Part shown: positions 4,087-64,000 of the stretch, piece after piece
Numbering within the stretch: the stretch's first letter is position 1
Layout of the letters: every line of letters starts with the position of its first letter
Assembly (NCBI GenBank): GCA_030390025.1
Contig: CM059432.1
Location: forward strand, 22,384,001-22,448,000
DNA length: 64,000 bases
Direction of reading: 5' to 3'
Source: Squalus acanthias
Taxonomy: Eukaryota
Made by a program: the position numbers and the translations under genes
The notes under the pieces: generated by a model
Seen by the model: the letters and a program-made list of their open reading frames with translations, nothing else
Database searches by the model: none
What the model was told of the DNA's origin: nothing

Positions 4087-4927
4087 TGAAATGCTGCAAC
4101 AATGAACTGCAAGTTCTCAATAATGTCAGTTGCTCATAATTCTTAGCTTGGGAAAATGCCACGACAACCAAGTGGCAGAAGTATGTTCACAATAAGTGCT
4201 CTCAACAAAGCGATTAAAAATTGCTGGGGAGGGTACACTGGTGCTTAATGGAGAAACAGGTTCCAATGTGGCAGGAGGCCTCCATAATTAATAATAACAC
4301 TAGAGTTAGTGAACCAACATGTTAAACTACTGCAAAAATGCAGACTAAATCTCATCTTTACAGCTGTTGGAAAATACTCTTACTGCAAAAAATTGTAGTT
4401 GTTTCCCTTGCTTTGATCTTTTAAAATCCAAGTTTGTCATCACTGAACTATGAATTCTTGTTTTCCCTCATCTTCACTCCTATTCTTTTCAGTATTAGTG
4501 ATGCTCTGCAGTATGGGCTGGGCCATTCACCTTGATTTCTTAATTTTGAAAGAAACCAATAGACCTCACAATGTCTGCATGTTGGATACTCTTCAAATAG
4601 GAACAATGACCTAGAAATTGGATAAGGCCCAAAAAAGGGCATGGGTTTTGCGATGCGTGACTACCCCGCACCCGTTCCTTCCGAGCAGGCAACACAGAAA
4701 CTTTGTGCTGCTTGCTAATTTAAATGTCAGCAGTGTGCAGCCCAGCGCTAACCGTGCTTTTGAGTGGCTGCACGCCTCAGTAGGGAGCTCAAGTTTGTGC
4801 GAGGCTAGCACCAATTAAAGCTAGCCTGCAGTTCTTAAAGCCAGCCTGCACCTCTTAAAGGAGTGGCGCATTCTGGCTGCAGCACGTACTGGAAGTTGTT
4901 GTCGAGGAGTGTGAAGGAAGATGGAAG

Positions 4928-6808
4928 ATGGCACAAAATGGCAAAGAGAGGGCTCCCAGATTTTCTGATGCAGCATTCGAAGACCTGGAGCAGGAGGTTC
5001 TCAGGAATGGAGGTGTCCTCGATCTACAGGGGGCCAGGAGGCCCTCCAGACACAAGCTGAGAAGGGAATGAGAGCAGATACCCATCGCTGTCAATGCAAG
5101 CAGTGTAGCCCCGAGGACCTGGAAGCAGTGCAGGAAGAAATTCAAGGTCAGTGAATTCATCTTCAAATGCCATATCCCAGCATCTGCACCATTAGCCTCA
5201 CACACTGCTCAAATCAACACACCCCCATCAGAATCATACCAACAATCTCTATCAAAACAATTCAGACCTCACATTTATAGTTTTGCCTCACCCTCACACA
5301 CTTACCACTGCTGCAAGCCTCACAGCTTGCATACACTGCCAGCTATTCAACCATGACAGGCACATCAACCAACCACACTCAGTGAAACGCTTCCCTTTCT
5401 CTTCCAGGACATAACTGGAGGCAGCAGGGGCTACCCGCAGGGAGACAGGTGCACCTGCATGACCTAACCACCATGGAGGAGACGGTGCTGGAGATAATTG
5501 GAACGGCCATCGCTGAGCCTGTGACCAGCAGAGGGGCTGAAACAATCTAAGTTGACGGTATCCTCATTCCTAATCCTCTTTTTCACATTCCACTTTCCCC
5601 TCATTCCACAATTTCTTCTGATTTACAAGCTGCAGATGGTGTTAGCACCCCCCCCCACCTCACCACAACTGTACCCTTGTGCCTTTCTCCTTTCAGATAG
5701 CCAAGAACTGCAACCTGGCCAGGCAGTGGTGAAGAGCAGGAACATCAAGAGGAAGAAGGCAGTGAAGCTGAAGACACAGCAACGTCTCTCGATTTCACAC
5801 TCGCAGCTACCAGCTCAGATACAGACACTCTGTGTACTTTAGAGGATAGGTTAGGAGTGGGACCTGCACGTGGTGAGACACCGAGCATGAGTGGTCTGCA
5901 GCCAAGGCAGGGGGAAAGGTTAGCTCAGGTGCCAGCTCCCTGGAGGGCGAGGTTGCACACGGGTTCTGCTACACAGGACTCAGATGAGGACTTCGATGGG
6001 GCAGCCTACAGAAGAAGGCTGATGGGTAGGCATACAGAAATGCTTGGTGCATTGGCAGACCTGCCAGAAAGCCTGAGTGCAATGTCAAGGAGCATGGAGG
6101 AGTCTGGCACCAACCTGGCACAGGGCTTTGTGCAGAACTTGGAGCTCATCCTTTCCAGCATGGAAGGGGTGGCCAGATCCATTAGCACACTTGTGGGCCC
6201 AACCATGATGCAGCGTCTGATGGCTGATGTCTCAGCCTCCATATGAGCACCAGCAGAAGTCACCCAACGTCTGAGTGCTGCAGTGGAAGCTCAGACTGAA
6301 GTCATGCAAGCTCAGCTTGTTGCCATGCAAGCTCAGTTTGCTAACACAGACTGGTGCCATCATGGCTGCGGGTACCAGTGTTGAAAGGGGTTTTTCAGGG
6401 TATCACAGCAGTCCAGCCATCTGTCCTCCAACAGATTATTAGGAATGCTGAGGCACCGCCCCGGGGAGTGGCAGTGGCTCCGTGGTGCACGAACTTGTTG
6501 TCCTCTCTCAGGATGACAGCACTCGTCCTCCCACCGTTGTCACTCTGCCAGTGCCCTTGCTGTTGCCTGTCAGCAGGTCAGCCCAGACTGTTGCCACCCA
6601 TGCTGAGGTGGTGCAGTCTAAAGCCGGGACTTCTAGGCCCAGAGCTGTTCGAGGTCATCCTACAAGGCCATCTGCAGTCTCTCCCATTGAAAGTCAGCAG
6701 CATTCCACCAGCCATGCTGCAGTCACTTGGGTAGCACTTTGTAGGAGCACTAGAACAGGCAAAGGCACACGGAAGACAGGCACTAATGAAATGCACAAGG
6801 GTGATTAG
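4928..6808 (+). pseudogene. Harbinger Myb/SANT-like DNA-binding protein, 3 exons, disrupted
   Basis: MAQNGKERAPRFSDAAFEDLEQEV...RTWKQCRKKF; inferred exons 4928-5146, 5408-5557, 5697-6808 with GT/AG sites; stops and frameshifts; C-terminus similar to Myb of 59146 element (VVLSQDDS...AGTSRPR). Confidence 0.8.
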
Positions 6809-6976
6809 TTGATATTGTTATGTAATATTGGATGGATTGAATATAAATTTGGTTTGGAATGTTTGTTTTGTGGTGGCTTTTATTGTAGCATTGTGGCCAA
6901 AAGGACGCTGTCATGGTCCATAACAGAGAGAAGGTGAGGTGTGGGACTGTGGGTGAATGGGGAATTGGGGTTGCAT

Positions 6977-8126
6977 TCACTGGTACCGCAGTCGGATCAG
7001 TTGATTATGGGTAGCCCAGCCAGAAAGGGGCTGTGTTGGTTGCCTCCCCACTTCCTCCTGCTCCTCCTCTTCCTCTTCCTTCTCTTCCTCTTCCTCCACC
7101 TCCTCTTCCTCCTCCACCTCCTCCTCTCCCTCCTCCTCAGTTCTTAGCCATCTCGATGGTGGCAAAGGCTGTGCCCTCATGATGGCGAGGTTGTGGAGCA
7201 TGCAGCAGACCATGACAAATCTTGAGACGGGGTCTGGTGAGTACTGCAGGGCTCCTCCAGAGTGGTCCAGGTAGCAGTAGCATTGTTTAAGGACCCCAAT
7301 AGTCTGCTCAATCAAATTCCATGTGGCAGCATGGCTTTCGTTATATGTGGTTGGTTTGCGCAGCGGAGTCATGAGCCTGGTGGTAAGTGGATAGCCCTTG
7401 TCACCCAGTAGCCACCCTCTGGTTTGTAGTGGTGGCTGAAAAGCAGATTGTACAGCAGACTGCCGCAGAATGAAGGCATCATGGCTGCTGCCAGGATACC
7501 GATCATTGACCTGCATGATGCTCTGAGTAGGTCGCACACCAGCTGGATGTTGAGGGAGTGGAATCCCTTCCGGTTGCGCTACATCTCCGAATTCACATGC
7601 GGCGTCCACAAAGCAACATGTGTGCAGTCAATGGCACCCTGCACCATGAAGAAGCCTGCTATCCTGCCGATGTGCATGCTCGCTCCGCCTGCTTCTCTCT
7701 GGTAAGAGAAAATGAAATGTATTCACCTCTCTTTGCATACAGAGCCTCACTGACCTCCTTTATGCAACGGTGGATGGCGAACTGTGAGATGTTGCAAATG
7801 TTGCCTGCTCCAGCCTGGAAGGAGCCCGACGCATGAAAATTCATGGCCACGGTAACATTCACAGCCACTGGCAATGCCGTCCTCGCACTACTCTGAGGCT
7901 GCAAGTCTGCCTGCAACAGGTGGCAGATTTCAGTAAGCAACTCCTCAATGTAGCGTAGACGTCGCATGCACTGTTCCTCGCTGAGATTGCGGTAGGATAT
8001 GGCCTCCTGCTGAGAGCCCTTCTCCCCCTCCTCCCTCTTCAAGCAGCTTGTCCTCCTCTGTGTAGCCTCTGCTCATTCTCCCTATCATGCCGAAAGCCAA
8101 AGGGGGATACAAACTACAGCCCCCAT
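6977..8126 (-). pseudogene. Harbinger DDE transposase (HARBI1-like), frameshifted
   Basis: Motifs [55 protein letters not shown] and acidic tail across ORFs 7659-8042 and 6977-7609; ATG at 8126. Confidence 0.9.
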
Positions 8127-9136
8127 GTCTGGGAGCAATTGGTCTGAGCAGAAGCCTTCAAATACCTGCCACACCCCTCCCTTGAGACTTCAGCAACTTC
8201 AAATAAGACACCAAGCCAAGAAACACCTCTACAAACTCACCAAGATCCAATAGAAATCAATCAGCAACTAACCTGAAAGCAGTTGATGATCCCTTTAAAT
8301 AGCGTTGATGAGGGGTCCTTCCTGCTGCTGAATGAATGTTGAGCTATGGGAGGTTAAGAGAAGGCAGTGGCTGCAGCATTGATGTAAATGGCACCGCTGG
8401 CGTCAAATTAGCATTACACACTGACTGACATCACAATCTATGCACTCTGCATAGTTCCAGTGCACGCTCCAAGCACCCGCACTAGTGAGCTCACCAAAAT
8501 GGCAACCGCACCAGAAGGGTGCACACGCAGCGCGGATGCCATTTTGGGCACACAGCGGCACACACAACGCCGAAAAACCGGATGCTATTGAGCCAAATTT
8601 CGCAGCCGATGGATTTTATCTTAGTCTGCCGCTTTCACAAAACATTACAGCACTACTAAAGTCTGAGTAAAAAGTTCAGAAATTGATGGTTCTTTTGGAT
8701 CACATTGTAATATTTTGATAGCAGTCCAGATTTACTTGTTTGGTGCTGAAGAATACCTGCTTTCAATCTGGAAGCAACATCGACGTGCAACTGCGAGTTG
8801 TTTTGATGCATTATCTGGAACTAACGTAGATCATTTTGAGGATGCATTTCATTATATAACTGAAACAAAGGGGGCAATTTTAACTGTATGTGCCCGGTGG
8901 AAATCGAGCATGAGGTTGGCGATCTGCCCCCCCCACCCCCAACGCACCCCCCCCCCCCCCCCCCCCAGACCCGACCTGCCAACTAGCTCAGCATTGGAGC
9001 TGACAGATTTTTCACCCTCCCAGAACCAGGATACCACAGCAGGGCAAAAGCAAAATACTGCAGATGCTGGAAATTCAAAGCAGAAAATGCTGGAAATACT
9101 CAGCAGGTCAGGCAGCATCTGTCAAGAGAGAAACAG

Positions 9137-19505: not shown

Positions 19506-19893
19506 TTGTGCCCTCTGGAAATTGAGTTAAGGCTATCAAATCACATTTCACGTGTCCCCTTAGTCATCAGTAAGAGAGAGAGAAAGGGAGGCTTGATCCT
19601 GTTGGTCTGTACTGGCATTAGGTCCAGATCACAGAAGTTGTTTTCAAATTGAAAGCACTATGCAGTCCCATGTGAGTGTGGTCATTTCAACCAGGCTGAA
19701 ATGCAATTGGATTGGTTTCAATTTTTGTTGTTAAATGGATGATTTCTTTGTGCATTTCAAAAAGTCCAAAGGCACTTCTAAAAATACAACTTTTGCAGCG
19801 TTAAGAAGTTAACCCTGCAGTCCCAGCTCCTGTAGCTGTTGACTGAGCTGTGTGAAATTGCAAATAAAAACACTCAGGCAAGTAAATTTATAC

Positions 19894-30492: not shown

Positions 30493-32508
30493 AACAACAA
30501 CACAACTTATATTTATATAGCGCCTTTAACGTAATAAAACAACCCAAAGCGCTTCACAGGAGTATTATAAGACAAAAAATTGACACTGAGCCACATAAGG
30601 AGAAATTAGGGTAGATGACTAAAAGCTTGGTCAAAGAGGTAGGTTTTAAGGAGTGTCTTAAAGGAGGAAAGAGAGGTAGCGAGGTGGAGAGGTTTAGGGA
30701 GGGAATTCCAGAGCTTAGGGCCTAGGTAACAGAAGGCATGGCCACCAATGGTTGAGTGATTATAATCAGGTATGCTCAAGAGGGCAGAATTAGAGGAGCG
30801 CAGATATCTCGGGGGGGGGGGGGGTTGTGGGACTGGAGGAGATTACAGAGATAGGGAGGGGTGCAGAGATTTGGCCAATTGGTAGCTTATCTCTCGTCTT
30901 TCAAATAATCAGAATTGACTGCAAACCAATATGGTGGGTATATTGTATTTAATCAGAGTTTAAGACGGAATATAACATGCTAGTTACACAGCAACAACAT
31001 ACGACCGTGACAAGCAGCTGGTACCAGTCCTGATCGGACAGACAGTTGGCGTGCATGAACAGTTCTCTGGCTTCTGGCCTCTCTCTCTTTCTCTCTCTCT
31101 CTCGCGAACCTCCGATGGTGAGCGTGGGATCACTCTCAAAAGAGCGTTCGACCAGCCCAACTTCTGTTCGGCTCTCCCCTCCACCGTCTGTGTGGGCGAG
31201 CACTCAGGGTGTCACTTTTATTCTCTTTTTAGGGGTGGGACTGAGGCCAAGTTATTGACAAGACCATTTAATCAGTTGAGGTTCCTCTAAAACCTTATCA
31301 CCCAATGACACCTCAAGTTCTTTGTCTTGGTTCTTGGATGAAAGCCGTCCCCAAAAGGGGGTCTCATTACTTCATCCAATTTGTCTTGTTGTTTAATCTT
31401 TCTGAAAGATTTTCCTTTGGAATTTTTGTCTTATCTCTCTTGTCTCTATCCTCCTTGACCCAGCAAGTATAAGGTCCGACCCTGTCCCTCTTTAATCAGG
31501 AGGCCCAAGCCAGAGCTGTCGCACCTTCATCTAGCAAATGGCCCATTCTAAGATGGATACCTTAGCCTCCTCAAATTCCTTTCATTCTATGTCTTTTCCT
31601 AATTAACTTTTAATTATCTTCATAAGCAGTTCTGCTAAACAAACTTCAAATTCTATCTTTAGAGATTATAATATGGTTATTAGTAATAATGGAAGAAACA
31701 TAGGTTGGGCCTTCACTGGCCAAATTAAAGATACATTAACAAAGTCAAAACCCTAACTTACAAACAACAGATAACTAGCCTGGCAGGGCCATCCTATGGG
31801 CCCCTGCGTGGAATATTTATGCCTCACCTAATCTAACTGATTGAAAAGACTGTCTCAAATTCTAATGCAAGTTTTCCAGGAAAATGAAACTTAATCAATC
31901 CCCTTACTTGTCTCAAGCCGAAACTTACAATCATTTAAATACAGTATTATTCGTATAGCCATATACATTTTTATGCACCCCTAGTTTCTAACAGGGGCGA
32001 GGCCATGGAGGGATTTGAAAACAAGGATGAGAATTTTGAAATTGAGGCCTTGCTTAGCCGGGAGCTAATGTAGATCAGTGAGTACAGGGGTGATGGGTGA
32101 ACGGGACTTGGTGCAAGTTAGGACATGGGCAGCCGAGCTTTGGATGACCTCAAGTTTAAGTAGGGTAGAACATGGGAGGGCAGTCAGGAGTGCGTTGGAA
32201 AAGTCAAGTCTAGAGGTAACAAAGGCATGGATGAGGGTTTCAGCAGCGGTTGAGCTGAGGCAGGGGCAGAGACGAGCGATGTTACGGAGGTGGAAATGGT
32301 TATGGCGCGGATATGTGGTTGGAAGCTCATATCAGGTTCAAATATGACGCCAAGGTTGCAGACAGTGTGGTTCAGCCTCAGACAGATGTTAAGGAGAGGG
32401 ATGGAGTCATTGGATAGGGAACAGAGTTTGTGGCGGGGACTGAAAACAATGGCTTCGGCCTTCCCAATATTAATTGGAGAAAATTTCTGTTCATCCAGAA
32501 CTGGATGT
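30493..32508 (-). mobile_element. L2-like LINE 3' portion, interrupted by a solo LTR
   Basis: Tail (TTG)n + GGCGCTATATAAAT at ~30493-30525; minus-strand LIHAFVTSRLDFSNALL at ~32230-32180. Confidence 0.85.
30862..31993 (-). mobile_element. Solo LTR (1132 bp)
   Basis: Minus strand TGTTAGAAACTAGG...TCTCTGCA; GGGG TSD (30858-30861, 31994-31997); ATTAAA at 30953-30948; L2 is contiguous across the site; homologous to 58047-63569. Confidence 0.88.
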
Positions 32509-37828: not shown

Positions 37829-37985
37829 AATGGCAGGCAGTTGGGTACCTGTGCAGGGAGACAGAGGAAAGGGAAGCAAGGATAGAAACAAAAGACAGGA
37901 AGGAGAAAAGCAAAAGTGGAAGGCAGAGAAATCAAGGGTGTAAATCAAACAGGGCTACAGTAAATAATAATTCTAAAAGGACTAA

Positions 37986-38878
37986 GGGGGAGAAATTCAG
38001 TATCGCCCCATTTGGGGCGCAATTACAGGCCGGGCGCAAAGATTAGCGCCTGGCGCTAATTATCACCACCGACTGCAAACTTGACTTTTATCGCCCCTGG
38101 AGGTGATTGGAGCACTAAATCAGGCGCTTCACACCTGTCTTAAGGCGCAAAGGCCGAGGAGCGAGGCGCTACCTCAGAGCGCTGGCGAAGCTCATGTGAT
38201 GTCAGTCAGCAATGGAACACACACACAATGGCGCAGGCTAGTTCTTAAAGGGGAGGGTTGCTCTTGCTTTCCATCCACATCCTGCTCATTGCAGCCTTGA
38301 ATCTCGGCCTGTAGAGACCTGCACATCAAATCTGCTGGAAAGAACAATGGAGAGTACCAGGGAAAGAGCTCAGAGTGCAGCCCCCACAGTCTCTTCTAAA
38401 TCGATACAAGGAAGGGCAAATCAAAATGAACCTGCAAAGTGCTGCTCAGTACCCAAAACTCCTTCACACAGCATTGAATCTCTCCAGAAGTCTCTCTCTC
38501 TCTCTCTCAGAATGCGTGGTTCAAAAATGTCACCAACAATAAAAGGCAGGAAGCGGTTGCCTTTAAATAGCACTCCCCCAGTCCCTTCCTGACTGCAAAA
38601 CGCTCCCCTCAGCTTGTCGTTGCTAGCGGCAGGCAGTAAGGCAGGAGGCGCCACTCAATATCTGCTCCGGGGCGATACCGGGGCGTTGCGCACTCGACTG
38701 ACGTCACGATCTGCCGGCGCAGGAGATTGTGGCGGTAGTGTTTAGCGCCGCCGCAAAATGTCTAGTTAATTTCGCGAGCGGCGCAAACATCGCCGCGCCC
38801 GGGCGCTAGATGCTTTCCACCTCATTAGCGCCCTCTTAAGGCGCTAATGGAAGGCGCAACCAACGGAATTTTTCCCCC
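37986..38878. mobile_element. Harbinger internal-deletion derivative (893 bp) of the 59146-type family
   Basis: GGGGGAGAAATT / AATTTTTCCCCC; TAA TSD (37983-37985, 38879-38881); both arms match ends of 59146-63325 in inverted orientation; keeps Myb start MESTRERAQ. Confidence 0.92.
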
Positions 38879-38908
38879 TAAGAGTGTTAAAAAAACAAGC
38901 CTGAAGGC

Positions 38909-39385
38909 TTGCAGCTGGGCCCCCAGGGATCGGGAGTGCCGGCAAAAGAGCCCGGCACTCAAGAGAAGTGCCGGGCTCTTGGAGCGCAGCCGGCACTTCA
39001 CGGTGGGGGGGCTTCACGGGGGCCGGGGGCAGGTGCTGGCAGGCGGCCAGCAACAAAAATGGCCGCCTGCCACCTCCGCTTTAAATATCGCCGCCCCGGC
39101 CGCACGTACGCCTCCCTGAACCCGTCGGACATAGCGTCTGGCGGTAAATCAGGGGGCGCGACTGAAGATCGCGGCCGGGGCGCGAGCGGGGTGCTGCGCA
39201 CGGCGATGACGTCATCGCCGGCGGCGCAGCGCCACAGGGCGCTACCGGCTGCCACCGCCGCTAACCTCCCACTAAATTTTTCGGGAGGCGTGGGCGGCGC
39301 TGCGCCCGGGCGTTAGCTGCTTTACGCCCCATTAGCGCCCTCTTAAGGTGCTAACGGGAGGCGCAAGCAGCTGAATTTTTCCCCC
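38909..39385. mobile_element. One-ended Harbinger MITE (GCGCC class)
   Basis: Right TIR GAATTTTTCCCCC at 39385; similar to 27040-27336; left TIR missing. Confidence 0.8.
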
Positions 39386-39386
39386 A

Positions 39387-42167: not shown

Positions 42168-43787
42168 ATTTGGATGATCAGCTATGATCTCATTAAATGG
42201 CGGAACAGACTCGAGGGGCCGAATGACCTACTCCTGCTCCTATCTTCTCTGTTTCTATGTTTCTATGCACATCTTTACTCACACCAACTTACCTTGCACC
42301 TGCACCCATCCCTCTCTATCTACATTATCACTTCTCCATTTCATTAGCCACCCCCACACTCACCCTCAACCTACTGCAAGCATACAAACTAACATCACAC
42401 AAGGGCAGGCACCTGGGTGGTTTAGCCAATGTTCATGTGACATTTCTGTTAATGTGTTGTCAAACATTGAAATCTATATTTTCAACACTTTACCTTATTG
42501 GACAGATCTGTGCTCACCTTTGGAAGTGTCTTAGTGAGTTCCAGTGAATGTTGAGACATGACTGTCCCTGCTCCCCCCCCCCCCCCCCCCCCCGCCACCC
42601 CCCTCCACAATGTGTGTGAAAGGAATGGCTTGGACATTGTAGGGATGCTTTATGGTGCTGGTGTGTGATGGTGTCAATCTGGCGCATCATCTGGCAGCCA
42701 GAGTGTACAACGTCAAGTGAAGTAAATCTGGCCATTGTGATGCCGTCGCTAGCCTCCCTGGCAGTAATGTTGTCGGGTGCTGATGCCCTGTGTCCTGTGC
42801 AGCATCAGGTGATTGCGGAGAAGGTTGGTATTGTTATTGGTGATGTTGGTGTGCCTGGTGATGTTGGTGCTGAGGCTGATCGTGGAGGGATTCAGAGGAT
42901 CAAGGTGACATTTTTTCATGGGCACCGAGTAGATGGCAGCTGAAGTTGAGATGACAGAAGTGATCTGTCAATGGTGAGAGAGCTTGCTCCAAGGAGGGGA
43001 CAGTGGATAGAGAGTTTACTCCAAACACTTCCAAACTGCATAAAGTTCAATAGTGTCTTCCAAGTCCTGAAGGCTCAAGCTTCTGACATTGGAAAGTGAA
43101 CTGCTGTGAAATAGTAGCTTTCATACCACTTTTGCAGCGGTCACCTATTCACAGCAATGGGGAGAGATATACTTACCTGACGTGATCTCCGAACGACATG
43201 AACCCCGTTAAAAAAGGTGGGAAAATAGAAATAGGCTGGCAAAATATTAGTTAATAAGCGTTTAACAAGCATTTAACTATCTTAAATGCCTCCCCCGCCG
43301 TTTGTTGTCGGGTCTCTTCTGAAATCGCAGACCCGACACTTTGGAAACTTACATGGAGGCGGGTTTGGAGCGGGTTCCCAACCAGCTGTCAATCATTTCA
43401 ATTTTGAAAGCGGACCCGCCTCCAAACCCGCACTCTGAGTGTCGGCAAAATCGCGGCCCATGAGTCTGATCCGCAGTGTCAAAGGATTGAGTTATGACTG
43501 GAGAAACTGGAGCCTATTAGCTTTGAAAGGAGACAACTGAAAGGGGGATTATATAGAAGTGCAGAAGATGTTTAAGGGGCAGGTAAAGTTAATCCGGAGA
43601 ACTACTTCAAAGTATGCCAGGATACTAGAACAAGGTGGTATAGATTAAAGCTGGTGAAAGGGAAATTTAGGATTGACATCAGGAAGCAGTTCTTCATACA
43701 AAAAGTGATCTATACTTGAAAAGGTCTTCTTGCTAGGGTAGTTGAGGCAAAAACCTAAGACGCATTCAAGAACCAGTTAGATGATGC

Positions 43788-45156: not shown

Positions 45157-47895
45157 TTGGAGTTTGGGAGACTAGACTAAAAGGTATGAAGGTGGACATA
45201 CAATGGCTAACATTCAAGGAAATAATGCATAATTTGCAACAAACATATATTCCTCTCGGGCATAAAAACCCAAAAGGAAAAGTGATCCAACCATGGCTAA
45301 CAAAATAAATTAAAGCTAGTATTAAGTCAAAGGAGGAAGCTTATAAAGTTGCCAGAAAAAGCGGTCAGCCTGAGGATTGGGATCTTTTTAGAAATCAGCA
45401 AAGGGGGACCAAGAAATTGATAAAAAAAGGGAAAATGGAATATGAGCACAAACTAGCGAAAAATATAAAAAACGGATTGTAAAAGCTTCTACAGGTATGT
45501 GAAAAGGAAAAGACTGGCGAAGGTAAATGTAGGTCCTTTACAGTCAGAGACGGGAGAATTTATAATGGGGAATGAGGAAATGGCTGAGAAATTAAATAAA
45601 TACTTTGTATTTAAAGGGGACCTCTTCCTGTCTTTTATTGTTGGTGGCATTTTTGAACTACGCATTCTGAGAGAGAGAGGGAGAGACTTCTGGAGAGATT
45701 CAACGTTGTGGGAAGGAGTTTTGGGTACTGAGCAGCACTTTGCAGGTTCATTTTGATTTGCCATTCCTTGTATCGATTTAGCAGAGACTGTGGGAGCTGC
45801 ACTCTGAGCTCTTTGCCTGTTACTCTCCATTGTTCTTTCCAGCACATTTGATGTGCAAGTCTCTCCAGGCCGAGATTCAAGGCTGCAATGAACAGGATGT
45901 GCATGGAAAGCAAGATTAACCATCCCCTTTAAGAACTGGCCCGTGCCATTGTGTGTGTGTTTCATTGCTGACTGACATTACATGAGCTTCGCCAGCGCTC
46001 TGAGTTAGCGCCTCACTCCTTGGCCTTTGCGCCTTAAGACAGGTGTGCAGCGCCTGCTTTAGCGCTCCACTCACCTCCCGGGGCGGTAAAAGTGAAGTTT
46101 CCTGTCAGTGCCGATAATTAGCGCCAGGCGCTAATATTTGCGTCCAGACGATATTTGCGCCCCAAATGGGGCGCGACCTAATTTCTACCCCTTTGTTTCT
46201 GTATTCACAGAGGAAGACACAAAAATCCTCCCAGAAATACAAGAAAACCAAGGGTGTGGTGAGAATGAGGAACTTAAAGAAATTATTATTAGTAAAAAAA
46301 CAGTAATAGCAAAATTAATGGGACTAAAAGTTGATAAATCCCAAGGACCGGATGACCTACCTCCTAGGGATTTGAAACAGGTGGCCATTGGGATAGTGGA
46401 CGCATCGGTTGTCATCTTCCAAAATTCTATAGATTCTGGAACGGTTCCTGCAGATTAGAGGATAGCAAATGTAACGCCGCTATTTAAGAAAGGAGGGAAA
46501 GAGAAAACAGGGAACTACAGACCTGTTAGCCTCACATCAGTAGTTGGGAAAATGCTGGAATCTATTATAAAGGATGCAATAACTGGGCACTTAGAAACTA
46601 ATAGTAAGATTGGGCAGAGTCAACATGGATTTATGAAAGGGAAATCCTGTTTAACAAACCTATTGGAGTTCTTTGAGGATGTAACTAGTGGAGTAGACAA
46701 AGGGGAACCGGTAGATGTGGTGTATTTGGATTTTCAGAAGGCCTTCAATAAGGTCCCACACAAGAGGTTGGTGAACATAATTAGGGCACATGGAATTGGG
46801 GGTAATATACTAGCATGGATTGAGAATTGGCTAACAGACAGAAAACAAAGAGTAGGGATAAACGGGTCTTTTTCAGGATGGCAGGTTGTGACTAGTGGGG
46901 TACCGCAAGGATCGGTGCTTGGGCCCCAGCTATTCACAATCTATATCAATGATTTGGATGAGGGGACTAAATGTAACATTTCCAAATTTGCTGATGATAC
47001 AAAGCTAGGTGGCAGTGTCAGTTGTGAAGAGGATGTGAAGAGGCTTCAAGGGGATCTCGACAGGCTCAGTGAGTGGGCGAGAACATGGCAGATGGAATAT
47101 AATGTGAAGTTATCCACTTTGGTAGAAAAAACAGAAAGGCAGAGTATTTCCTAAATGGTGAAAGATTGGGGAATGCAGATGCTAAAAGGGACTTGGATGT
47201 CCTTGTACATGAGTCACTGAAAGTGAATGTGCAGGTGCAGCAAGCCATTAGGAAGGCAAATGGTATGCTGGCCTTCATTACAAGAGGATTTGAGTACAGG
47301 AGTAAAGAAGTCTTACTCCAATTATATAGGGCCTTGGTGAGACCACACCTGGAGTACTGTGTACAATTTTGGTCTCCTTACCTAAGGAAAGATATACTTG
47401 CCATAGAGGGAGTGCAATGAAGGTTCACGAGATTGCTTCCTGGGATGGCAGGACTGTCGTATGAGAAGAGATTGAGTAAACTAGGCCTGTATTCTCTTGA
47501 ATTCAGAAGAATGAGAGGGGATCTCATTGAAGCATAAAAAATTATTACAGGGCTTGATAGGGTGGATGCTGGGAGAATGTTTCCCTTGGCTGGGGAGTCG
47601 AGAACCAGGGGCCACAGCCTCAGGATAAAGGGTAGGCCATTCAGGACTAAGATGAGAAGAGGGTGGTGAATCTTTGGAATTCTCTACCCCAGAGGGCTGT
47701 GGAGGCTCAGTCATTGGGTATATTCAAAACAGAAGTCGATAGATTTCTGACTAGTAAGGGCATCAAGGGATATGGTGATAGGTCCGGTGAATGGAGTTGA
47801 GGCAGAAGATCAGCCAGGATCTCATTGAATGGCGGAGCAGGCTCGAGGGGCCGAATGGCCTACTCCTGCTCCTATTGCTTATGTTCTTATGTTCT
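45157..47895 (+). mobile_element. 5'-truncated CR1 (inner), nested in the outer CR1 in the same orientation
   Basis: RT motifs in ORFs 46552-47154 and 47166-47420; (TTCTTATG)n tail ending ~47895. Confidence 0.88.
45608..46191. mobile_element. One-ended Harbinger deletion derivative, same subfamily as 37986-38878
   Basis: Right TIR AATTTCTACCCC; right ~200 bp nearly identical to 63130-63325; same internal junction as 37986 copy; left ~300 bp absent. Confidence 0.88.
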
Positions 47896-51759: not shown

Positions 51760-54700
51760 GGGCTCGATTTTAATAGCCCTGAGGAGGCGGGTTTGGAGGC
51801 GGGTCTGTTGGGAAAATTAGCCAAAATGGCTTCAGACACCCAACCCGCCTCCATCCCGCCCCCATCCGATTTTTGTGAGTGTCTGTTTAGCCGCTCGAAA
51901 ACTGACCCGTCTCCAACCGGTGGGACAGGTAGTTAAGGCAGTTAACAGCCTGCTAACTGCCTTGCTAATCCTATTTTCATAGTGGTTTCCTATTTTCATA
52001 GTGGTTTCCCATTTTCCTGCTTCTGGCTCCTGTTGCCCGACTAGTCAGAAACAGGCCAGGTTCAAGGAGATGAGATGCTGGAGGAGATGATTTGTATGCA
52101 TTGGTGGAGTGCTTTAAAAGCGCCCCTGAAACATGGCTGACATTCAAATGCAACAACTTTGCTGCTGTAGGTATGGGATAAGATTTTGCACGTCTACTGA
52201 CCTTGTGCTGACACTCATCTGCAGTGTGACCTGAATGGAAATATTTCAGGCCAATCCGACTGTGCGCTTGCAAGATTGTTACCTCAAATGAAATCTATAG
52301 CAAGGGGATGGGAAACACTTATGCCCTCTCATTCTGGTCCTCATACTCGGGGGAATAGCAGCCGCGTGGCTCACCACAGATCTTCCTGGGAAGAGGAGTA
52401 GGAGGAGGACGAGGGGAGCCTTGCATGCCCTGTTGTGACCAATGCAGCATCCCTCCAGTTCACTGCTGCCCGTCAACCAGGGTATGCACACTGCCATGCC
52501 ACATTACCATAAGCTTACTCTTCGACCATAGGTGGCCACCATATGGCTCTGTAATTGCAGGCGACACTTGTCCAATGTCATACTTCATCTCTGCTATACC
52601 CTCTTATTTCCTATCACTTTTACCATCAGCATTACAAATGCAAGTCGCCCTGAGCCCTCAATGCGCTTTTGCCATTTCCCAGAACACATAGGCCACACAA
52701 TCAACTGTTTGACATAATTTATCTTTAACACATGACAAAATATACCAGCAAGAGTCAGAAAAAAAGAAACATCACTCATGTGAGTCCCCTTGTGACTACA
52801 GGTGCTAATCTTTCTCTTACGCATGATTCTACGTGGTGCTTCCCCTGTGGCTTCAGCAGAGGTAAAGGCACCTTGCTGACTAGGATGCTGCGCCTGCTTA
52901 GACGTCTTTGGCGGGCGTCCTCTGGGTTTGGGAGACTGGGAGGGCTCTTCAACAGTCTGCTCTTCCTGCGGCTGTGCAGGGGCTGAAACGGCCATCTCAG
53001 TTGTCTCAAAGTGGATCTCTGACCAAGGGCTCCACAGTGGCATGGTCGTGCGAGCGCTTTGAGAGGAGCCCACACTTCCTTCTGCCCTGCCAGCAACATC
53101 CCTCTCATGGGTCAACCACACCTCAGTGTTGGCAAGTGGCAGGAGAGCACCTTGCTACACTTCAGGGGGGCCATGAGGACCTGTATCTGCACTGGCAGTC
53201 CTCATCACAAGGACGTCCATGAAGCTGGCCATCGCTCCTCCAGAGATGTTATTCTATTCTGAACAGTCACCATGTTTTCCTGACTCTGGCGACTTATTTC
53301 CTCCATGGCCATAGCCATCCTTTCCACTGAGGTAGCCAGCCTTCCACGGAGGTTGCCATCCTATCCATGGTGGTGCGTTCATGCGCCATTGCCCCCACCA
53401 TGGCAGTGCTGATGTTAGAGATGGACTCCTCCATTCTCTCCAAACTCGCACTAACCCTGGAGGCAAACCCTTCCAGAGACACCTGCACTTGTTCCTGTAT
53501 TTCACGAACCGCTCTTTTTCTGGATGGCCCCAGAGGCACAGCGTCTGCATGCAGCTCAGCAGAGCTAGGAGAGTCCTGCGACCTCCACAGAGGACTCTCC
53601 ACTGCTGTCGCTGTCTCCACCATCTGCTGATGCTCACTTGTGTGCTGTGATAGACCAGGTGGCAACACTACTCTAACTCGCGAGGGCCCCACCAAGGTGT
53701 GCGTTGCTGCGCTGGTGCTGGGTGCACTGAGTCCTGGTGATGCTGGTCCCTCAGAGGCTTCAGGTTCCTCTGAGGAGATGGCCGACTCTTCGTCCTGGAT
53801 CGTGGGGAGGGGGGCAGTCGATCGTCCTGTGGGAGAGTAAAGGCTTGAGTTAGACATCTGATATTGATGTAGCAGACACATACTTTTGAGCAGATGATAC
53901 AAAGCGATTCTCTATGAACATCATATTCCATTGCTTTCTGAGAGGGATGAAACTCTATTATGTCACCAACTTCCTCTAGTGTGCCCGTCTCTCCATCGCC
54001 CACTTCCAGATCCTCGCCACCCCCAACAATCTCGTTTGCTGCCTCCTCAGCACTGGTTAATGTTGCAAGGGTAGGTGTTCCTCCTCCAGTCATTGCTCTC
54101 TCCCTCTTATTGTGGGCTATCTTTTCCTGCAAGGAGGGACACAAGCGATGTTTCAGCCACAGTGATGGAGTGAGTGTGATTAATCCCTCCCATAGAAGCT
54201 TTGAGTGAGACAAAGATGGGGTAAGGTGCCAAGAGGAAGGTAGCTCCCTGTGCGTTGTTAGTTGTTGTCACTGCATGACAGTGAGAGCGAGTCTAAGGGG
54301 TGCATAGGCAGGATGCTGAAGTGATTCAGTGCAGAGACAGAGATGGATAGGAAAGGGTGCAAGAGAAGTAAGAGTAAGGTGGGATGTGAAGGAGAGGCTT
54401 ACAACACAGAGTGCTGGTGATGAGAAGAGAAGGGAAGCAGAGTGAAGGCAAGTGAGATGGGATACTCACTTTTGATGTTCTCACAAGATCATTAAAACTT
54501 TTGCGGCACTGGATCCATGACCGTGCATAAATAGACCGTGCGCTGACCTCCTGAGCAATGTGCAGCCAGGCTGCCTTGGTCTGCTGAGGAGGCTTCCTCC
54601 AGCCGTCAGGAGGGAAGAGAATCTCCCTGCACCCTCTGACAGCATCCACAAGAACTTGAAGGGACTCATCATTAAAACGAGGAGCTGCCTTGCCTCTGGA

Positions 54701-54969
54701 AGAAGTCATAGCTTTGAAAAGAACTGCAGGAAACCACAATAGAAAGGCTCAGGCTGGAAGGCAACTTTAAAAGCAGCTGCTATTATGACGTCATCAGAGG
54801 TGGCCAGCCAACCCGATCCCACTCATTGGACCAGCCAGCGCACCTCCATGAAATTAACAAGGTACTTGAAAAAATCGCAAATCTGCAGCTGTTCCCGCCG
54901 GAAGCAGCTCCCGAACCCGCCCACCACGCAACCCGACTCCAACCCTCCTCGGGAATTAAAATTGAGCCC
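51760..54969. mobile_element. Harbinger element (CCCGCC class) retaining Myb gene, transposase mostly deleted
   Basis: TIRs GGGCTCGATTTTAAT / ATTAAAATTGAGCCC (14/15); CTA TSD (51757-51759, 54970-54972); only an acidic-tail-like remnant of transposase near 52390-52420. Confidence 0.9.
52776..54709 (-). pseudogene. Harbinger Myb/SANT-like protein, 3 exons; N-terminal part open, C-terminal third disrupted
   Basis: Exons 54709-54470 (MTSSRGKAAPRFNDESL...WLHIAQEV...RSWIQCRKSFNDL), 54126-53967, 53826 onward with GT/AG; stop at 53296-53294; out-of-frame tail has AT-hook-like KPRGRPPK; 3' end approximate. Confidence 0.85.
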
Positions 54970-57816: not shown

Positions 57817-59657
57817 CTCCTGACCGCTCATCTCTGCCCCCGACCTCTCTCCGGCTCCCCGCGATCACCCCCCAAACCACGCTTTACCCCACCCCCCCCT
57901 TGTGATCTCTACCCCGAGCAGCAGGCTCCCTACCTGCTCCCGGGCTGCAGCCTCTTCTGGAGTGTTCCCCACCTGACAGGGACCCAAGGCTGTCAATCAG
58001 GCTGACTTCCGGTCAGATAACCTGTTTAAAAAACAAATGTGCACGCTGTTAGAAATTAGGGTATCCAAAATATATGGGGTTATGCTAATGATATTGTGAC
58101 ACAAATAAGACTGTGTTTGCATGACTGTATTAGAACTTGAGACAAAAGTCTCATCAGACTAGTTTCAGAATAACGGGATAGATGCTTAGAATTTGCTTAT
58201 GTTTTTAATTCTCTGCTGATGTTATAACATTCTTCACCGTGACGGTCATATATGACTTTGTTTCCAGGCTAGCTATCTGCTGTTTTCAAGTTAGGATTTT
58301 GACTTTGTTTATGTATCTCTAATTTGGCCAACCGAGGCCCAACGTTATATTTCTTCCATTACTGCTAATAACCATATTATGATGCTAAGTTAGGATTTTG
58401 ACTTTCTTCAACAAAGCTGCTTTAAAATGCGTAAGTTAACAAGTGTGTGAGAATAGAATAGAGGATACCTTTGGGAATTTAATGCTTCATTCCATGGTAC
58501 AATAGTCTGATAATGGAATGAAATAATTAGTTTTGCACAGTTAAAGCTACATGAACAGCTTGAACGTAAATAACTTATAACAAGCAACTACGAATATCTG
58601 AAGGCCAAGAATGGCATGTCTGACTCCAAACTTGGGAGGATAGGGACAAGAGAGATAAGAGGAATTATGATGGATGGGCCTTCAGAATGTATAAACAGGA
58701 AAGACATGTGAGGTAAGAGCATGAGACCCCTTAGGGGAGGGCTTTCATCTGAAAGTTAAGACAACAAACTCGACGTGCCATTGGGCACATTGGTTTAAGA
58801 AGAACCCTTACAGGTTAAATGGTCCTGTCCATATTGTACATCAGGCCCACCCCTAAAAAGGGAATAAAAGCAAAATCCAAAAAGTTCTTAGCACAGATGA
58901 TGGAGGGGAGAGCCAGACAAGAGTGGGGCTGGTCTAACACTCTTCCGGGAGTGGACACATGCTGACCTAAGTTAACACTCTTGGAGGTTTCAGACGAGAG
59001 GAAGAAAGGCCGTAAGCCGGAGAACTGTTTGCGCACGCCAGCCATCTGTCCGATCGGGATCGGTACCAGCTGCTTGTCATGGTCGTATGTTTTTGCTGTA
59101 TTACTAGTGTGTTATATTCTGTCTTAAACTCTGATTAAACACAATGGGGTAAAAATTCAGTTGGTTGCGCCTCCCGTTAGCACCTTAAGAGGGCGCTAAA
59201 GGGGCGCAAAGCCGCTAACGCCCGGGCGCAGCGATGTTTGCGCCGCTCGGGAACTTAACTAGAGATTGTGCGGCGGCGCTAAAACTTACCGCTGCGACCA
59301 CCTGCGCACGCAGATTGTGACGTCATTCCATGGTGCAACGCCCTTGTGGCGCACCGGAGCGGAAATTGAGTGGCGCCCCCTGCCTTACCGCCTGGCGCTT
59401 CCAACGACCGGAAGACTGGAACGCTATCAATCGCTGTGGGGCTGGGGGGGGGCGCTATTTAAAGGGGGCCTCTTCCTGTCTTTTTCTGTGGTCGACATTT
59501 TTGCACCACTCGTTCTGAGAGAGAGAGAGAGATTCGGAGAGAGAGAAAGAGAGACTTCTACATTGACTCAACGCTTTGTGAGGTAGTTTTGCCTATTGAT
59601 CCTAACTTCGCTGCTACTTTAGTTGCTGTCCTTCATTACTTTGCTTGCAAAGAGAAT

Positions 59658-60809
59658 ATGGGGGCTGCACTGATTGGGGGCGTCGTCCTGCTCCAGCTGA
59701 ATCGGAGGATACAGAGACGCAGAGAGAGAGTGGCAATGATGGCCAGACGGAGGAGGGCCATCAGGCATATGTACAGGAGAGCTTACCCTCCCAGGGTATA
59801 TCGTGAACAGCTCTCCTACATCCATATGTCCGAGGAGCTGTGTTTGCGAAGGCTGCGATTCAGCAAGGAGGTGGTCACTGACATCTGCCACCTGCTGTAG
59901 CCAGATCTGCAGCCTCAACTGAGGTCCAGGACGTCTCTGTCGGTGGCAGTGAAGGTCACAGTGGCTTTGAACTTTTACGCTACTGGCTCATTTCAAGCTG
60001 CTGCTGGGGACCTCGCCAATATCTCCCAGTTCGCGGTGCATTGCTGCATCCGGCAGGTCACAAATGCCCTCTTCAAAAGGAGACGAGAGTTCATCTCTTT
60101 CCCCATGACCCCAGACAAGCAGCGTGACCGCACTCTGGGCTTTGCGAGGGTAGCGGGCTTCCCCATGGTGCAGGGCGCCATTGACTGCACGCATGTGGCT
60201 TTGCGTGCTCCGCATGAGAATGCCGAGGAATTCAGGAACAGAAAGGGGTTCCATTCCTTGAATGTCCAGTTGGTCTGTGACCACAGACAGCTGATACTCG
60301 CTGTCAATGCCCAGTATCCTGGCAGCTGCCACAATGCTTTTATCCTGCGCCAGACTACTGTGGCAGAACTTTTCGAGGCACCGCATCAGCCAGTTGGTTG
60401 GCTTCTCGGGGACAAGGGGTATGCATTGAGCACCTGGCTGATGACACCGCTCCGTACGCCCAACACCCCTGCTGAGCTGCGGTACAATGAGAGCCATCAA
60501 GCTACCAGGAACATTATTGAGCGCACAATCGGCGTGCTGAAGCAATGGTTCCGCTGTCTGGACCATTCTGGAGGAGCCCTGCAGTACTCGCCTGAGCGAG
60601 TATCGAACTTCGTAGTCGTGTGCTGCATGTTGCATAACATGGCAATCCTCAGGACCCAGCCAATGCCACCAGGCCTTGGAGCACCACCAGAGGAGGAGGA
60701 GGAAGAGGACGAGGTCGATGATCATCAGCAGCACCAAGGCGGGAGGGCGGCCCACAATGGTCAAACTGCAAGGGCCGTCTGTCAACGGCTAATAGCAAGC
60801 CGCTTCTAG
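59658..60809 (+). pseudogene. Harbinger DDE transposase (HARBI1-like), 383 codons with one premature stop
   Basis: ATG 59658 to TAG 60809 in one frame; internal TAG 59898-59900; [47 protein letters not shown] motif reads HN (AAT 60333-60335). Confidence 0.95.
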
Positions 60810-61102
60810 GGCCCCTGCAATTGCTAACAACATTAATGAACCCAGCACGCAACCCTAAGCCGGCCAAGGCACCAATAATTCCAACCACCAACCATGTATA
60901 TTTTGAATACAGAAACTTATTTATTTTACAAACTCTGTGTGTGTCAATTCCTCATGACAAACTCATAGAAATAAACACAAAAAAATAGTCAATAACATAA
61001 CTGGTTCTCACAACCTGGAGATAATGTCCAAAACACTAAACAAAAGTTGGACCATGAACCTCGACCTTTGATAAAAAAATGACCAGCATTTTGTCACACC
61101 TC

Positions 61103-62979
61103 CTACTTTTTGCCCTTCGAGGGTGATCTCCTTCCCTTGCGCACTTCCCCCCTTCTAACCCTACTGCTCCTCCGTAATGGGACCTCAGTGGCTGCAGCAA
61201 GGCTGGTGGAAGGCTGCTGCTCGTCAGACCCTGACACTGCAGATGCCCCTGAAGGACGGCCTCGACCAGTTCTGGGCCTGGAGGGCCCAGCTGCAGACTA
61301 CACCAACTCTGCATGGGCGGCAGCAGTCTGTCCTACAGGCGGTGGCAAGTGCAGTGGAGAAGTGACAGTGTTGGCAGCAGGAATGCTGTCATCGTGAGAG
61401 AGGACAGCAACTCCCTGCTCGCCCGACACACTGGCACTCCCACGGGGCAGCACTTCAGCATCCGGAGCAATCTGCCGGAGAACAGATTGCTGGCCTGCTG
61501 CGGCGCGGTGACAGCCCCGGGGACATGTGCACGAACCATCGAGGTTGGCAGCAGTCTGTGCTCGCGTGGCCTCAATCTGAGTCTGTATGAGAGCAGTCAG
61601 AGATGGGATCACAGCAGCCAGTGACTGAATTGCAGCACTAAGCGTTAGTGTGGCATCCGCCTGTGCTACAGCGAAGTGCTCCACACTCCTTGCCAGTGAC
61701 TCAATGCATTCGGGCACCCTTCCCACTGCACCCATGAGCTCAGTGTGCATGCCCACCGCCTGGGTGTTCATTTCTGCGATCAGCCGCTCCTCCTCTGCGT
61801 CCATTGCAGTAGGAGTGTCTGGCATACTCTCCCTCTGGAGAGAAGGCCCCCGTTCTTCCCTACCCCCCCCATGGCGTTGCTGCAGCCCGCTGGGTCCTGG
61901 AGCTTCACCCTCATCAGATCCTTCCCCCCTGCTCCCCTCCAGGGAAGGCGTGTTCCCAGTGTGGGCATGGGCTTCCTCGGGAGAGGGTGGCACTGATGCT
62001 CCGGCTTCCTCTTCCTCCTCAGCTGCAGCATCACTCCCAGTGGCAGCTTCAGGGCCCGTCTCCTCAGCTGGTGAATCACCATCTGAAAGCAGGGAGGTAC
62101 AAGAGTGGCTTTAGCGTGAGGACAGGGTGGCAGTAAGGGAGGAATAAGTGCAGCGAGTTAGCAAGTTGGATTGAAAGTGTCAAAGGCTGGTGTTGTGAGG
62201 GACAAGTGGAAGGACAGAGGACAAAAAGGTGATGACCTTACCATTGCTGTCCAGAACGGGGTCGGCGTCTCCAGTGGCGACGGGACCGATCACCCGGCTT
62301 GCCACAATCCTGTGGACGCGCTCCTCAAGATCGCTGAGGGGTTGCAGCTGAGGCCGCCCTCCACCTGTCCGTTGCTGCTGTCTCCGATTATGCGCCAGCT
62401 TGGCCTGCAAGAAAAAGGACAGCATCTGAGTAAATATACAGCCATGGTCTTGCCTGATGTGCCTCCCATAGGTGAATAGCCCTTACTGAATGCAGCCATG
62501 GTCTTGCCTGATGTGCCTCCCATAGGTGAATAGCCCTTACTGTATACAGCCATGGTGTTGCCTGATGTGCCTCCCATAGGTGAATAGCCCTTACTGTATG
62601 CAAAGTGTGGAATGTGTGTGTGTGTTTGATGAAAGGGCCATAGGTGTTGGATGAGTGTTGTGCATTGGGGTTTTAACACCCTCTGGCCATAGAGTGAGGT
62701 TGAGATGGAGGGATGGAGAGGTATTGAGAAAAAGCCACTCACCCTGACGACCCGAGTGAGGTCGTTGAACTTTTTGCGGCATTGAGTATGGGTCCTGGGC
62801 ACCATGCTCCTGGAGGAGACGCTCTGAGCCACCTCCCTCCACACTCTTCTGAACTCGCGTGGCAAAGGCCTCCTGCCACTCTCAGGGAAGAGCATACATC
62901 TTCTGCGCTCCACCGCGCCAACCAGAGCATCCAAGGCCTGCTCGGTGAAGCGATGAGCGCGTTCTCTCACCCTCTCCAT
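61103..62979 (-). pseudogene. Harbinger Myb/SANT-like protein, 3 exons, one late premature stop
   Basis: Exons 62979-62743 (MERVRERAHRFTEQAL...WREVAQSV...QCRKKFNDL), 62404-62242, 62082-61103; canonical GT/AG, phases 0 and 1 join in frame; TAG at 61300-61298 precedes a basic tail ending SKGKK*. Confidence 0.9.
62437..62598. repeat. Tandem repeat, 3 x 54 bp, in Myb intron 1
   Basis: GCCATGGTCTTGCCTGATGTGCCTCCCATAGGTGAATAGCCCTTACTG recurs at 62441, 62495, 62549. Confidence 0.95.
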
Positions 62980-63652
62980 GCTTGGCAGCAAAATGGATTC
63001 ACAGGTCTCTCCAGGCCGAGATTCAAGGCTGCAATGAGCAGGGTGTGGCTGGGGAGCAAGTTGGCCCCCCCCGCTTTAAGAAGTGGCCGGCGCCAGTGTG
63101 TCTGTGTTCCCTCGCTAACTGGCAGCAGCTGCGCTGAGTTAGCGCCTCACTCCTTGGCCTTTGCGCCTTAAGACAGGTGTGCAGCGCCTGATTTAGCGCT
63201 CCACTCACCTCCCGGGGCGGTAAAAGTGAAGTTTCCAGTCAGTGCCGATAATTAGCGCCAGGCGCTAATATTTGCGTCCAGACGATATTTGCGCCCCAAA
63301 TGGGGCGCGACCTAATTTTTACCCCAATATTCCCACCATATTGTTTTGCACTCGATCCTGATTATTTGAAAGACCAGCGAAAGCTAATATCAGCAAATTA
63401 CATAGGATTATATAAGATATACGGCACAGAAACAGGCCATTCGGTTCAACCAGTCCATGCCGGCGTTTATGCTCCACACGACCCTCCTCCCGTCTTTCCT
63501 CATCTAAATCTATCAGCATAATCCTCTATTCCCTTTTCCCTCATATGCTTGTCTAGCCTAATCTCAACACGCTGTGGAGTTAAAACCTGGACCTTCCTGA
63601 CCAGAACTCCTCCCCCCGGCTTGGAAGTCCCACCACAGTAAAGATTGGGGCC

Positions 63653-64000
63653 CCATTCTGGGATGAGCTAAAATTTCCTTCAGTTAAATATTGGGAAACC
63701 AAAAGCCATGGTCTTTGCCCTTCACCACAAACTCTGTACCTTGGCCACTGGTTCCATTTTTCACCCCAGCCACTGTCTCATCTTGATCCAGACTGTTCAC
63801 AACCTCGGCGTCCTATTCGACCCCGAGCTGAGCTTCCAAGCCTACATCCTCTCCAACACAAAGGCTGCCTCCTTCCAACTCCGTAACATTGCCTACTTCC
63901 ACCCCTGCATCAATCCTTTTACTACTGATACCCTCATCCATGCCTTTGTCACCTCCAGGCTCAACTAGTCCAAAGCTCTCCTAGCAAACCTGCAATCTTT
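63653..64000 (+). mobile_element. L2-like LINE fragment
   Basis: NFLQLNIGK, VHNLGVLFDPELSF, LIHAFVTSRL; continues from ~57030-57071. Confidence 0.85.

What the first reader, a model, noticed from the sequence alone, without database searches (positions are those of the whole stretch)
59146..63325. Nearly resurrectable two-component Harbinger transposon
Seen: perfect TIRs and TSD, no frameshifts in either gene, intact splice sites. Visible lesions are single-base transitions: transposase TAG 59898 (Gln in the 4608 element, CHLLQ), HD>HN at 60333 (HD in the 4608 element), probable R>W at ~60546, and Myb TAG at 61300 (Gln in the 4608 element, EVVQSKAG). Established: Harbinger transposition needs both a DDE transposase and a Myb-like protein; the vertebrate system characterised so far (Harbinger3_DR) was reconstructed from zebrafish. 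Inference: the family was recently active and intact copies may exist in this genome.
Basis: partly seen in the sequence, partly recalled or inferred. Interest (0 to 1): 0.76.

Follow-up and report, generated by a model that had tools for sequence, protein, structure and literature searches.

The report
Dead copy of abundant shark transposon
This is a structurally complete but inactivated two-gene Harbinger jumping gene from a very abundant family in a shark-type genome; the family's working sequence can be read from its many sister copies, but nothing here shows that it still moves.

Summary
Real: a 4,180-bp Harbinger-superfamily DNA transposon at 59146-63325, with 12-bp exact terminal repeats, an AAT duplication confirmed by a paralogous empty site at 30942-30944, a 383-aa DD35E transposase and a convergent three-exon Myb/SANT gene. 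All four named lesions are where stated. In public runs the sister copies carry the open or conserved codon at three of them (88-100% of depth), so they are private to this copy; the fourth (HD>HN) rests on homologues. The family, coding part included, has about a thousand or more copies (inferred), and this copy lies about 1.4% from the majority sequence. Corrections: at least six more private amino-acid changes and an in-frame insertion exist; the HD aspartate is outside the canonical triad, which is intact; the 37986 MITE is a sister family (27 of 195 terminal bases differ). Low divergence is not recency in sharks, and no intact copy, empty allele or spliced transcript was seen. Naturally intact vertebrate Harbingers are already described (Harbinger-Snek). 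The scan found a similar near-intact copy elsewhere in this genome. Verdict: new member of a known kind; modest interest.

The parts
59143..59145 (.). [quoted passage not shown]
59146..59157 (+). left terminal inverted repeat, 12 bp exact (14 of 16)
59192..59282 (.). four subterminal TTWGCGCY-type motifs, candidate Myb-protein binding sites (binding inferred, untested)
   Evidence: 10 motifs in the terminal 300+300 bp, 0 in the 3,580-bp interior; shuffle mean 0.16, maximum 4 of 2,000 shuffles
59658..60809 (+). intronless DDE transposase, 383 aa; D176, D252, E288 (DD35E) intact; stop at codon 81 (59898), N226 (60333), W297 (60546)
   Evidence: (PF13359 E 7.5e-38)
60920..60975 (.). convergent polyadenylation-like signals: AATAAA on minus at 60925-60920 and on plus at 60970-60975 (use inferred)
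61103..62082 (-). Myb-like gene exon 3; premature TAG at 61300 removes the last 64 aa (16 Lys/Arg); 3-bp in-frame insertion near 61863
62242..62404 (-). Myb-like gene exon 2 (163 bp)
   Evidence: same exon structure matches the 4608 and 51760 elements by tblastn
62435..62602 (.). 54-bp tandem repeat, 3.1 copies, inside intron 1
62743..62979 (-). Myb-like gene exon 1 with the Myb/SANT domain
   Evidence: (PF13873 E 2.3e-8)
63139..63295 (.). six subterminal TTWGCGCY-type motifs
63314..63325 (-). right terminal inverted repeat
63326..63328 (.). right copy of the AAT duplication
30883..31367 (-). paralogous empty site: another copy of the host repeat with a single AAT (30942-30944)
45607..46191 (+). 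non-coding derivative inside a CR1 LINE, TTT duplication, left TIR lost; last 195 bp differ from the element at 4 positions, interior resembles the 37986 MITE
37986..38878 (-). 893-bp MITE of a sister family, TAA duplication, TIR GGGGGA(G/A)AAATT
4608..8603 (-). older, frameshifted two-gene Harbinger element (transposase 58-72% aa identical in three pieces); ends approximate

Best explanation
A full-length, once-autonomous copy of a Harbinger-superfamily cut-and-paste transposon of a cartilaginous fish, now dead by ordinary neutral point mutation. Mechanism of the intact family (from established Harbinger biology, not tested here): the Myb/SANT protein binds repeated subterminal motifs, binds the transposase and brings it to the nucleus and the ends; the DD35E transposase excises the element and inserts it at an AT-rich triplet within a loose palindromic target, duplicating 3 bp. 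The family multiplied to about a thousand or more coding-length copies plus MITE-like derivatives, in at least two sub-lineages. Copies have since decayed slowly, so near-intactness reflects a slow shark clock at least as much as youth. Shown: anatomy, duplication, private nature of three lesions, abundance (as summed contig depth). Inferred: copy number, age, binding sites, present inactivity of the family.
For: Anatomy and lesions. Empty paralogous site. Sister copies: 59898 shows C in 98.9/99.8/100/100% of depth in four runs, 61300 shows G in 99.5/99.7/99/100%, 60546 shows C in 88.5/91.7/100/100%. Median summed depth over 17 internal bins is 6-7e5 in the two DNA runs of organism A, single contigs reach depth 25,000, and long flank contigs have depth 10-27. 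Six long majority-like contigs differ from this copy at 31 of 2,198 bases, 1.4%. Of 15 displayed differences that are private (>85% other base in both DNA runs), 5 are CpG transitions and 11 are coding, of which 9 change a residue or create a stop, as expected without selection. The transposase nests in a 23-row shark-and-ray clade with 100/98 support; 108 of the 120 listed homologues carry shark or ray names, best identity 69%.
Against: No genome was available, so the youngest tail of the family was not seen. 7,227 of 39,449 and 8,728 of 51,623 laid contigs are 99% or more alike to this stretch, though most are very short. Summed contig depth is not a copy number. Part of the 1.4% may be sub-lineage difference, which would make the copy younger. 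The shark mutation rate comes from one other species and has a tenfold interval (PMC10587355, passages). Only 15 of 103 joints were displayed, so an empty allele could be hidden.
Confidence: 0.66

Rival explanations
1. This copy is dead but the family is still active: a few intact master copies supply transposase and Myb protein and still move full-length copies and MITEs.
For: Very high abundance and low divergence; copies with both frames open are expected (37% at 1.4%, 87% at 0.2%, substitutions only); precedent in sea kraits, with intact and transcribed copies (PMC8437027, passages); the 45607 derivative is 98% identical over its last 195 bp.
Against: A copy at 1.4% carries about 11 transposase and 13 Myb missense changes in simulation, so an open frame is not a working one. 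No homologue above 69% identity among 400 hits (best 120 listed). No empty-allele joint among the 15 of 103 displayed.
Confidence: 0.2
2. The copy is still partly functional in trans: the 394-aa truncated Myb protein keeps its SANT domain and could bind ends or the transposase, as helper or as dominant-negative brake.
For: The Myb stop is late (codon 395 of 459) and in the last exon; splice sites and SANT aromatics F11, F31, F43, W47, F71 are present. Solo-ORF variants are known in sea kraits and Caenorhabditis inopinata (PMC8437027 and 10.64898/2026.05.26.728016, passages).
Against: The stop removes a basic tail (16 Lys/Arg in 64 aa), a likely nuclear signal (inferred); Q14 in the SANT region is a private change (Arg in 98-99.5% of sister depth); the lesions look neutral.
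Confidence: 0.07
3. A recent horizontal transfer spread a near-identical element over several unrelated species.
For: Seven organism labels hold about 0.4 or more of the sampled words; marine Harbinger transfers are documented (PMC8437027, PMC9179366, passages).
Against: The one foreign-label run laid (X12, organism F) shows the element at a median 5.9e-5 of run X2's depth, and an unrelated high-copy flank repeat at 8.6e-5, with the same two sequence variants as organism A: the pattern of trace host DNA. The transposase nests among shark and ray sequences.
Confidence: 0.05
4. A domesticated gene pair, or stops that are assembly errors.
For: Database names of the homologues are 'putative nuclease HARBI1'.
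Against: Intact TIRs and duplication inside a repeat; very high abundance; the lesions are mostly transitions, several at CpG, not the indels typical of assembly error.
Confidence: 0.02

Closest known systems
Harbinger3_DR / Harbinger3N_DR of zebrafish (Sinzelle et al. 2008: not held; seen only as cited in passages of PMC2836001, PMC3016246, PMC9710019)
   Same: Two genes (DDE transposase, Myb-like protein), TIRs, subterminal repeated motifs, 3-bp duplication. The six bases before the duplication here (AAACAC) equal the left arm of its AAACAC-CWG-GTCTTT target.
   Different: Duplication is AAT (TAA, TTT in related copies), not CWG; the right arm matches at 1 of 6 bases; shark host; this copy is dead; activity untested. 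No sequence comparison with Harbinger3_DR was made.
Harbinger-Snek of sea kraits (PMC8437027, passages)
   Same: Massive expansion of a two-gene Harbinger in a marine vertebrate, with full-length copies and non-autonomous derivatives.
   Different: Snek is a dated horizontal transfer (15-25 Mya) with 269 intact copies in one species. Here the transposase belongs to a resident shark-and-ray clade and no intact copy was seen.
Shark and ray 'putative nuclease HARBI1' gene models (66 of the best 120 from Pristiophorus japonicus)
   Same: Up to 69% identical transposases, same motifs; closest branches in the tree.
   Different: Automatic names for what are mostly decayed transposon copies or separate domestications (my reading); none is this family.
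Rice Ping/Pong with mPing (PMC2836001, passages)
   Same: Two-protein mechanism with MITE mobilisation in trans; TTA-type AT-rich duplication.
   Different: Plant system, naturally active, 9-bp target preference.

Membership tests
Harbinger superfamily, broad sense (PMC9179366; PHIS of PMC4482050) | DDE transposase of the DDE_Tnp_4 type | tested here: met
   PF13359 E 7.5e-38. In the model (pLDDT 90.3) D176 lies on a strand, D252 just after the fourth strand and E288 in the long helix; 35 residues between D252 and E288. Fold search: only weak hits (best E 5.7e-3), nearly all DDE transposases or integrases.
Harbinger superfamily, broad sense | second gene encoding a Myb/SANT protein | tested here: met
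   PF13873 E 2.3e-8, above the curated cut-off; three exons
Harbinger superfamily, broad sense | terminal inverted repeats | tested here: met
   12 bp exact, starting GGG; shorter than the usual 25-50 bp in PMC9179366, within the 12-61 bp given for NuwaI in PMC4482050
Harbinger superfamily, broad sense | 3-bp target-site duplication | tested here: met
   AAT/AAT with a paralogous empty site
Harbinger superfamily, broad sense | both proteins needed for transposition; Myb binds the ends | not testable with these tools
   established for Harbinger3_DR and Ping/Pong (PMC2836001, passages)
PIF/Harbinger in the narrow sense of Han et al. 2015 | TWA duplication | tested here: not met
   this copy has AAT; the sister MITE has TAA and one junction contig shows TAA after the right end, so the wider family is mixed
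NuwaI / NuwaII (Han et al. 2015) | CWG, or C|TNA|G, duplication | tested here: not met
   AAT; gene content and GGG start do fit
Pangu (Han et al. 2015) | ANT duplication with a second ORF lacking known motifs | tested here: not met
   AAT fits ANT but the second ORF has a Myb/SANT domain
PHIS subgroups (Han et al. 2015) | placement in the DDE-domain tree among reference subgroup transposases | not tested
   no labelled reference sequences were at hand; the tree holds database homologues only
potentially active (autonomous) element | both ORFs intact | tested here: not met
   one premature stop in each gene

The most novel reading that the evidence does not exclude
The genome holds naturally intact, still-mobile copies of this family: a shark Harbinger system with AT-rich 3-bp duplications and a Harbinger3_DR-like extended target, active without reconstruction, in a lineage whose DNA transposons are usually reported as a minor fraction. 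It would give a second vertebrate two-component Harbinger for cell assays and a first handle on structure, since no solved relative was found.
Probability: 0.18. Interest if true: 0.65.

Novelty: new member of a known kind. Interest (0 to 1): 0.3.

Why it matters
As one dead copy it matters little. The family matters somewhat more. Harbingers were reported absent from elephant shark with a call to check other cartilaginous fishes (PMC9179366), listed in whale shark (PMC8455134), and DNA transposons make up only 1.58% of the grey reef shark genome (PMC12498223; all passages). Here Harbinger-type pieces fill roughly 29% of this one window (rough interval sum) and one family has about a thousand or more coding-length copies. 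Because the majority sequence is well determined by sister copies, a consensus element could be tested as was done for Harbinger3_DR. No solved structure of a relative was found by sequence or fold.

Tried and rejected
Whole-genome search: no genome is held for this window. Expression: no listed holder is on record as RNA. Run X13 (RNA is only a guess) covers both introns, including a 458-bp contig across the exon 1/intron 1 border, and no joint matching either intron is among the 15 of 103 joints displayed; intron 1 bins are lower than exon 3 bins relative to DNA, but contig depth cannot rank parts, so no conclusion. Insertion polymorphism: no empty-allele joint displayed and no listed contig bridges a flank-element junction; undecided. 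Position 60333 is not among the 40 of 218 rows displayed, so the HD lesion was not checked on sister copies. Horizontal transfer: rejected for the one foreign run laid. Near-identical proteins: none at 210-671 aa, one distant hit among short proteins, one Myb hit at 50%. PDB sequence search: nothing significant. Rfam 58000-64000: 0 matches. Look-ups of earlier scan notes by sequence and relatives: nothing. HD>HN as a triad lesion: rejected on spacing and model topology, although D is the usual residue (81 of 115 homologues; N in 17). Paper searches for a description of this shark family found none; Repbase and Dfam could not be searched, so it may be catalogued there.
Full report
Observation. 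The element is real and bounded as stated. Both ends read GGGGTAAAAATT (12 bp exact, 14 of 16) and are flanked by AAT. Joining the two flanks in silico gives a sequence that aligns across the junction to a second copy of the same host repeat at 30883-31367, which has one AAT; this paralogous empty site confirms the 3-bp duplication. A motif TTWGCGCY occurs 10 times in the terminal 300+300 bp and never in the 3,580-bp interior (shuffle mean 0.16). I read these as Myb-protein binding sites by analogy with the 9-bp subterminal motif of Harbinger3_DR (PMC9710019, passages); this is inferred.

Genes. The plus strand holds an intronless 383-codon transposase (59658-60809) with one stop at codon 81 (PF13359). 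The minus strand holds a three-exon, 459-codon Myb/SANT gene with GT-AG introns and one stop at codon 395. The genes converge on two AATAAA signals. There is no frameshift. The model of residues 82-383 (pLDDT 90.3) puts D176, D252 and E288 at the positions that PMC4482050 (sections read) describes for the triad, with DD35E spacing. N226 sits at the start of a helix after the third strand: a fourth conserved acidic site (D in 81 of 115 homologues), not the canonical second D. Whether it is essential is untested.

Host and relatives. The flanking repeats are CR1- and RTE-type LINEs (for the domains; the clade names are my reading). 108 of the 120 listed transposase homologues carry shark or ray names, the best at 69% identity. 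In a tree of 33 rows (this protein and 32 of the 120, chosen to span taxa) it lies in a shark-and-ray clade with 100/98 support, near sawshark sequences. The host is therefore most likely a shark, and the lineage looks resident.

Sister copies. No genome was held, so I used public runs: 23 listed, 4 laid. In two DNA runs of organism A (the same or a very close species; flank contigs differ by 1 to 4 bases in 288) the median summed depth over 17 internal bins is 6.1e5 and 6.8e5, against 10-27 for long flank contigs, and single contigs reach 25,000. The tool warns that this is no copy number; my inference is about a thousand or more copies that include the coding part. At 59898, 61300 and 60546 the other base makes up 98.9-100%, 99-100% and 88.5-100% of depth in all four runs, so these lesions are private. 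Position 60333 was not among the 40 of 218 rows displayed. I evaluated 28 of those 40 rows: those inside the element, less five clustered non-coding rows. They show further private residues: transposase H37, I76, T159, Q219 and Myb Q14, L215, plus a 3-bp in-frame insertion near 61863. Homologue columns add A236 (P in 88 of 114) and C375 (R in 45 of 74) as candidates. Intermediate-frequency variants and paired contigs at 59937-60180 (7 versus 12 differences) indicate at least two sub-lineages.

Age. Six long majority-like contigs differ from this copy at 31 of 2,198 bases, 1.4% (for two regions with two variants I took the closer one). A simulation gives about one stop and 24 missense changes at that divergence, and a 37% chance of no stop: two stops are unremarkable, open-frame copies probably exist, and most would still be damaged. 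At 7e-10 per generation (interval 1.4-14.1e-10; PMC10587355, passages) 1.4% is 10-100 million generations. This is an upper-side estimate, since CpG decay and sub-lineage differences inflate it, but it shows that low divergence does not mean recent activity in a shark. No empty allele or spliced transcript was seen, in truncated tables.

Other organisms. Seven organism labels hold about 0.4 or more of the words. The one foreign-label run laid has the element at 5.9e-5 of run X2's depth and an unrelated flank repeat at 8.6e-5, with the same variants. That is trace host DNA, not transfer. Five labels remain unlaid.

The proposed substrate. The 37986 MITE has a different TIR, a TAA duplication and 27 differences in the terminal 195 bp, against 4 for the derivative at 45607-46191. 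It shares the subterminal motifs (8 copies), so cross-mobilisation is possible, but it is a sister family.

Comparison. It meets every tested feature of the Harbinger superfamily in the broad sense. It fits none of the duplication-defined subgroups of PMC4482050, so I leave the subgroup open. The target flank AAACAC equals the left arm of the Harbinger3_DR target (PMC3016246, passage); related copies show AAGGAC, AAATAC and AGACAC. Intact natural vertebrate copies are known from sea kraits (PMC8437027, passages), and PMC4482050 lists 88 potentially active PIF/Harbinger families. Other papers seen as passages only: PMC2836001, PMC4671723, PMC9392472, PMC8455134, PMC12498223 and two bioRxiv preprints; PMC9179366 as its first sixth plus passages. 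No supplements were read. Earlier scan notes on this genome describe a similar near-intact copy and the same target preference; they are unchecked AI notes and I used them as leads only.

Verdict. A well-preserved dead copy of an abundant shark Harbinger family: new member of a known kind, interest 0.3. The chance that the family is still naturally active is about 0.2.

Noticed in passing
window 69-1384, 9144-10039, 18953-25709, 39140-39385, 51760-54969: Further Harbinger-type elements with short GG-starting inverted ends and 3-bp duplications (AAA, AAT, ATT, CTA; 39140-39385 is a left-end fragment). 51760-54969 carries Myb-like exons but no transposase match. A rough sum puts Harbinger-type DNA at about 29% of the window.
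   Followed up: partly
window 45607-46191: Mosaic derivative inside a CR1 LINE: interior 94% like the 37986 MITE, last 195 bp 98% like the 59146 element; TTT duplication kept although the left TIR is gone. Loose ends at 63134 in three of the four runs match it, so this form is itself a family.
   Followed up: partly
window 21233-25226: Related MITE interrupted by a roughly 3.6-kb LINE (endonuclease and reverse transcriptase ORFs at 21325-23803), itself nested in the 18953-25709 element.
   Followed up: no
proteins P0004/P0005, P0011/P0014, P0025/P0028, P0044/P0045, P0006/P0012/P0017/P0019: Harbinger transposase-like proteins that pair across distant sharks and rays on short branches, several lacking the catalytic Glu: they look like several separate domesticated transposase genes.
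   Followed up: no
window 59898 and 61300: Both premature stops come from CAG codons in the same TGCAG context rather than from CpG; two cases only.
   Followed up: no
window 36376-36525: A further Myb-like fragment inside a 36069-43458 inverted-end pair that also holds a long CR1-type LINE (esterase, endonuclease and reverse transcriptase ORFs).
   Followed up: no
run X12 (organism F): Holds this element and a flank repeat in the proportions of organism A at about 6e-5 depth: trace DNA can mimic horizontal transfer for any high-copy repeat in such run searches.
   Followed up: yes
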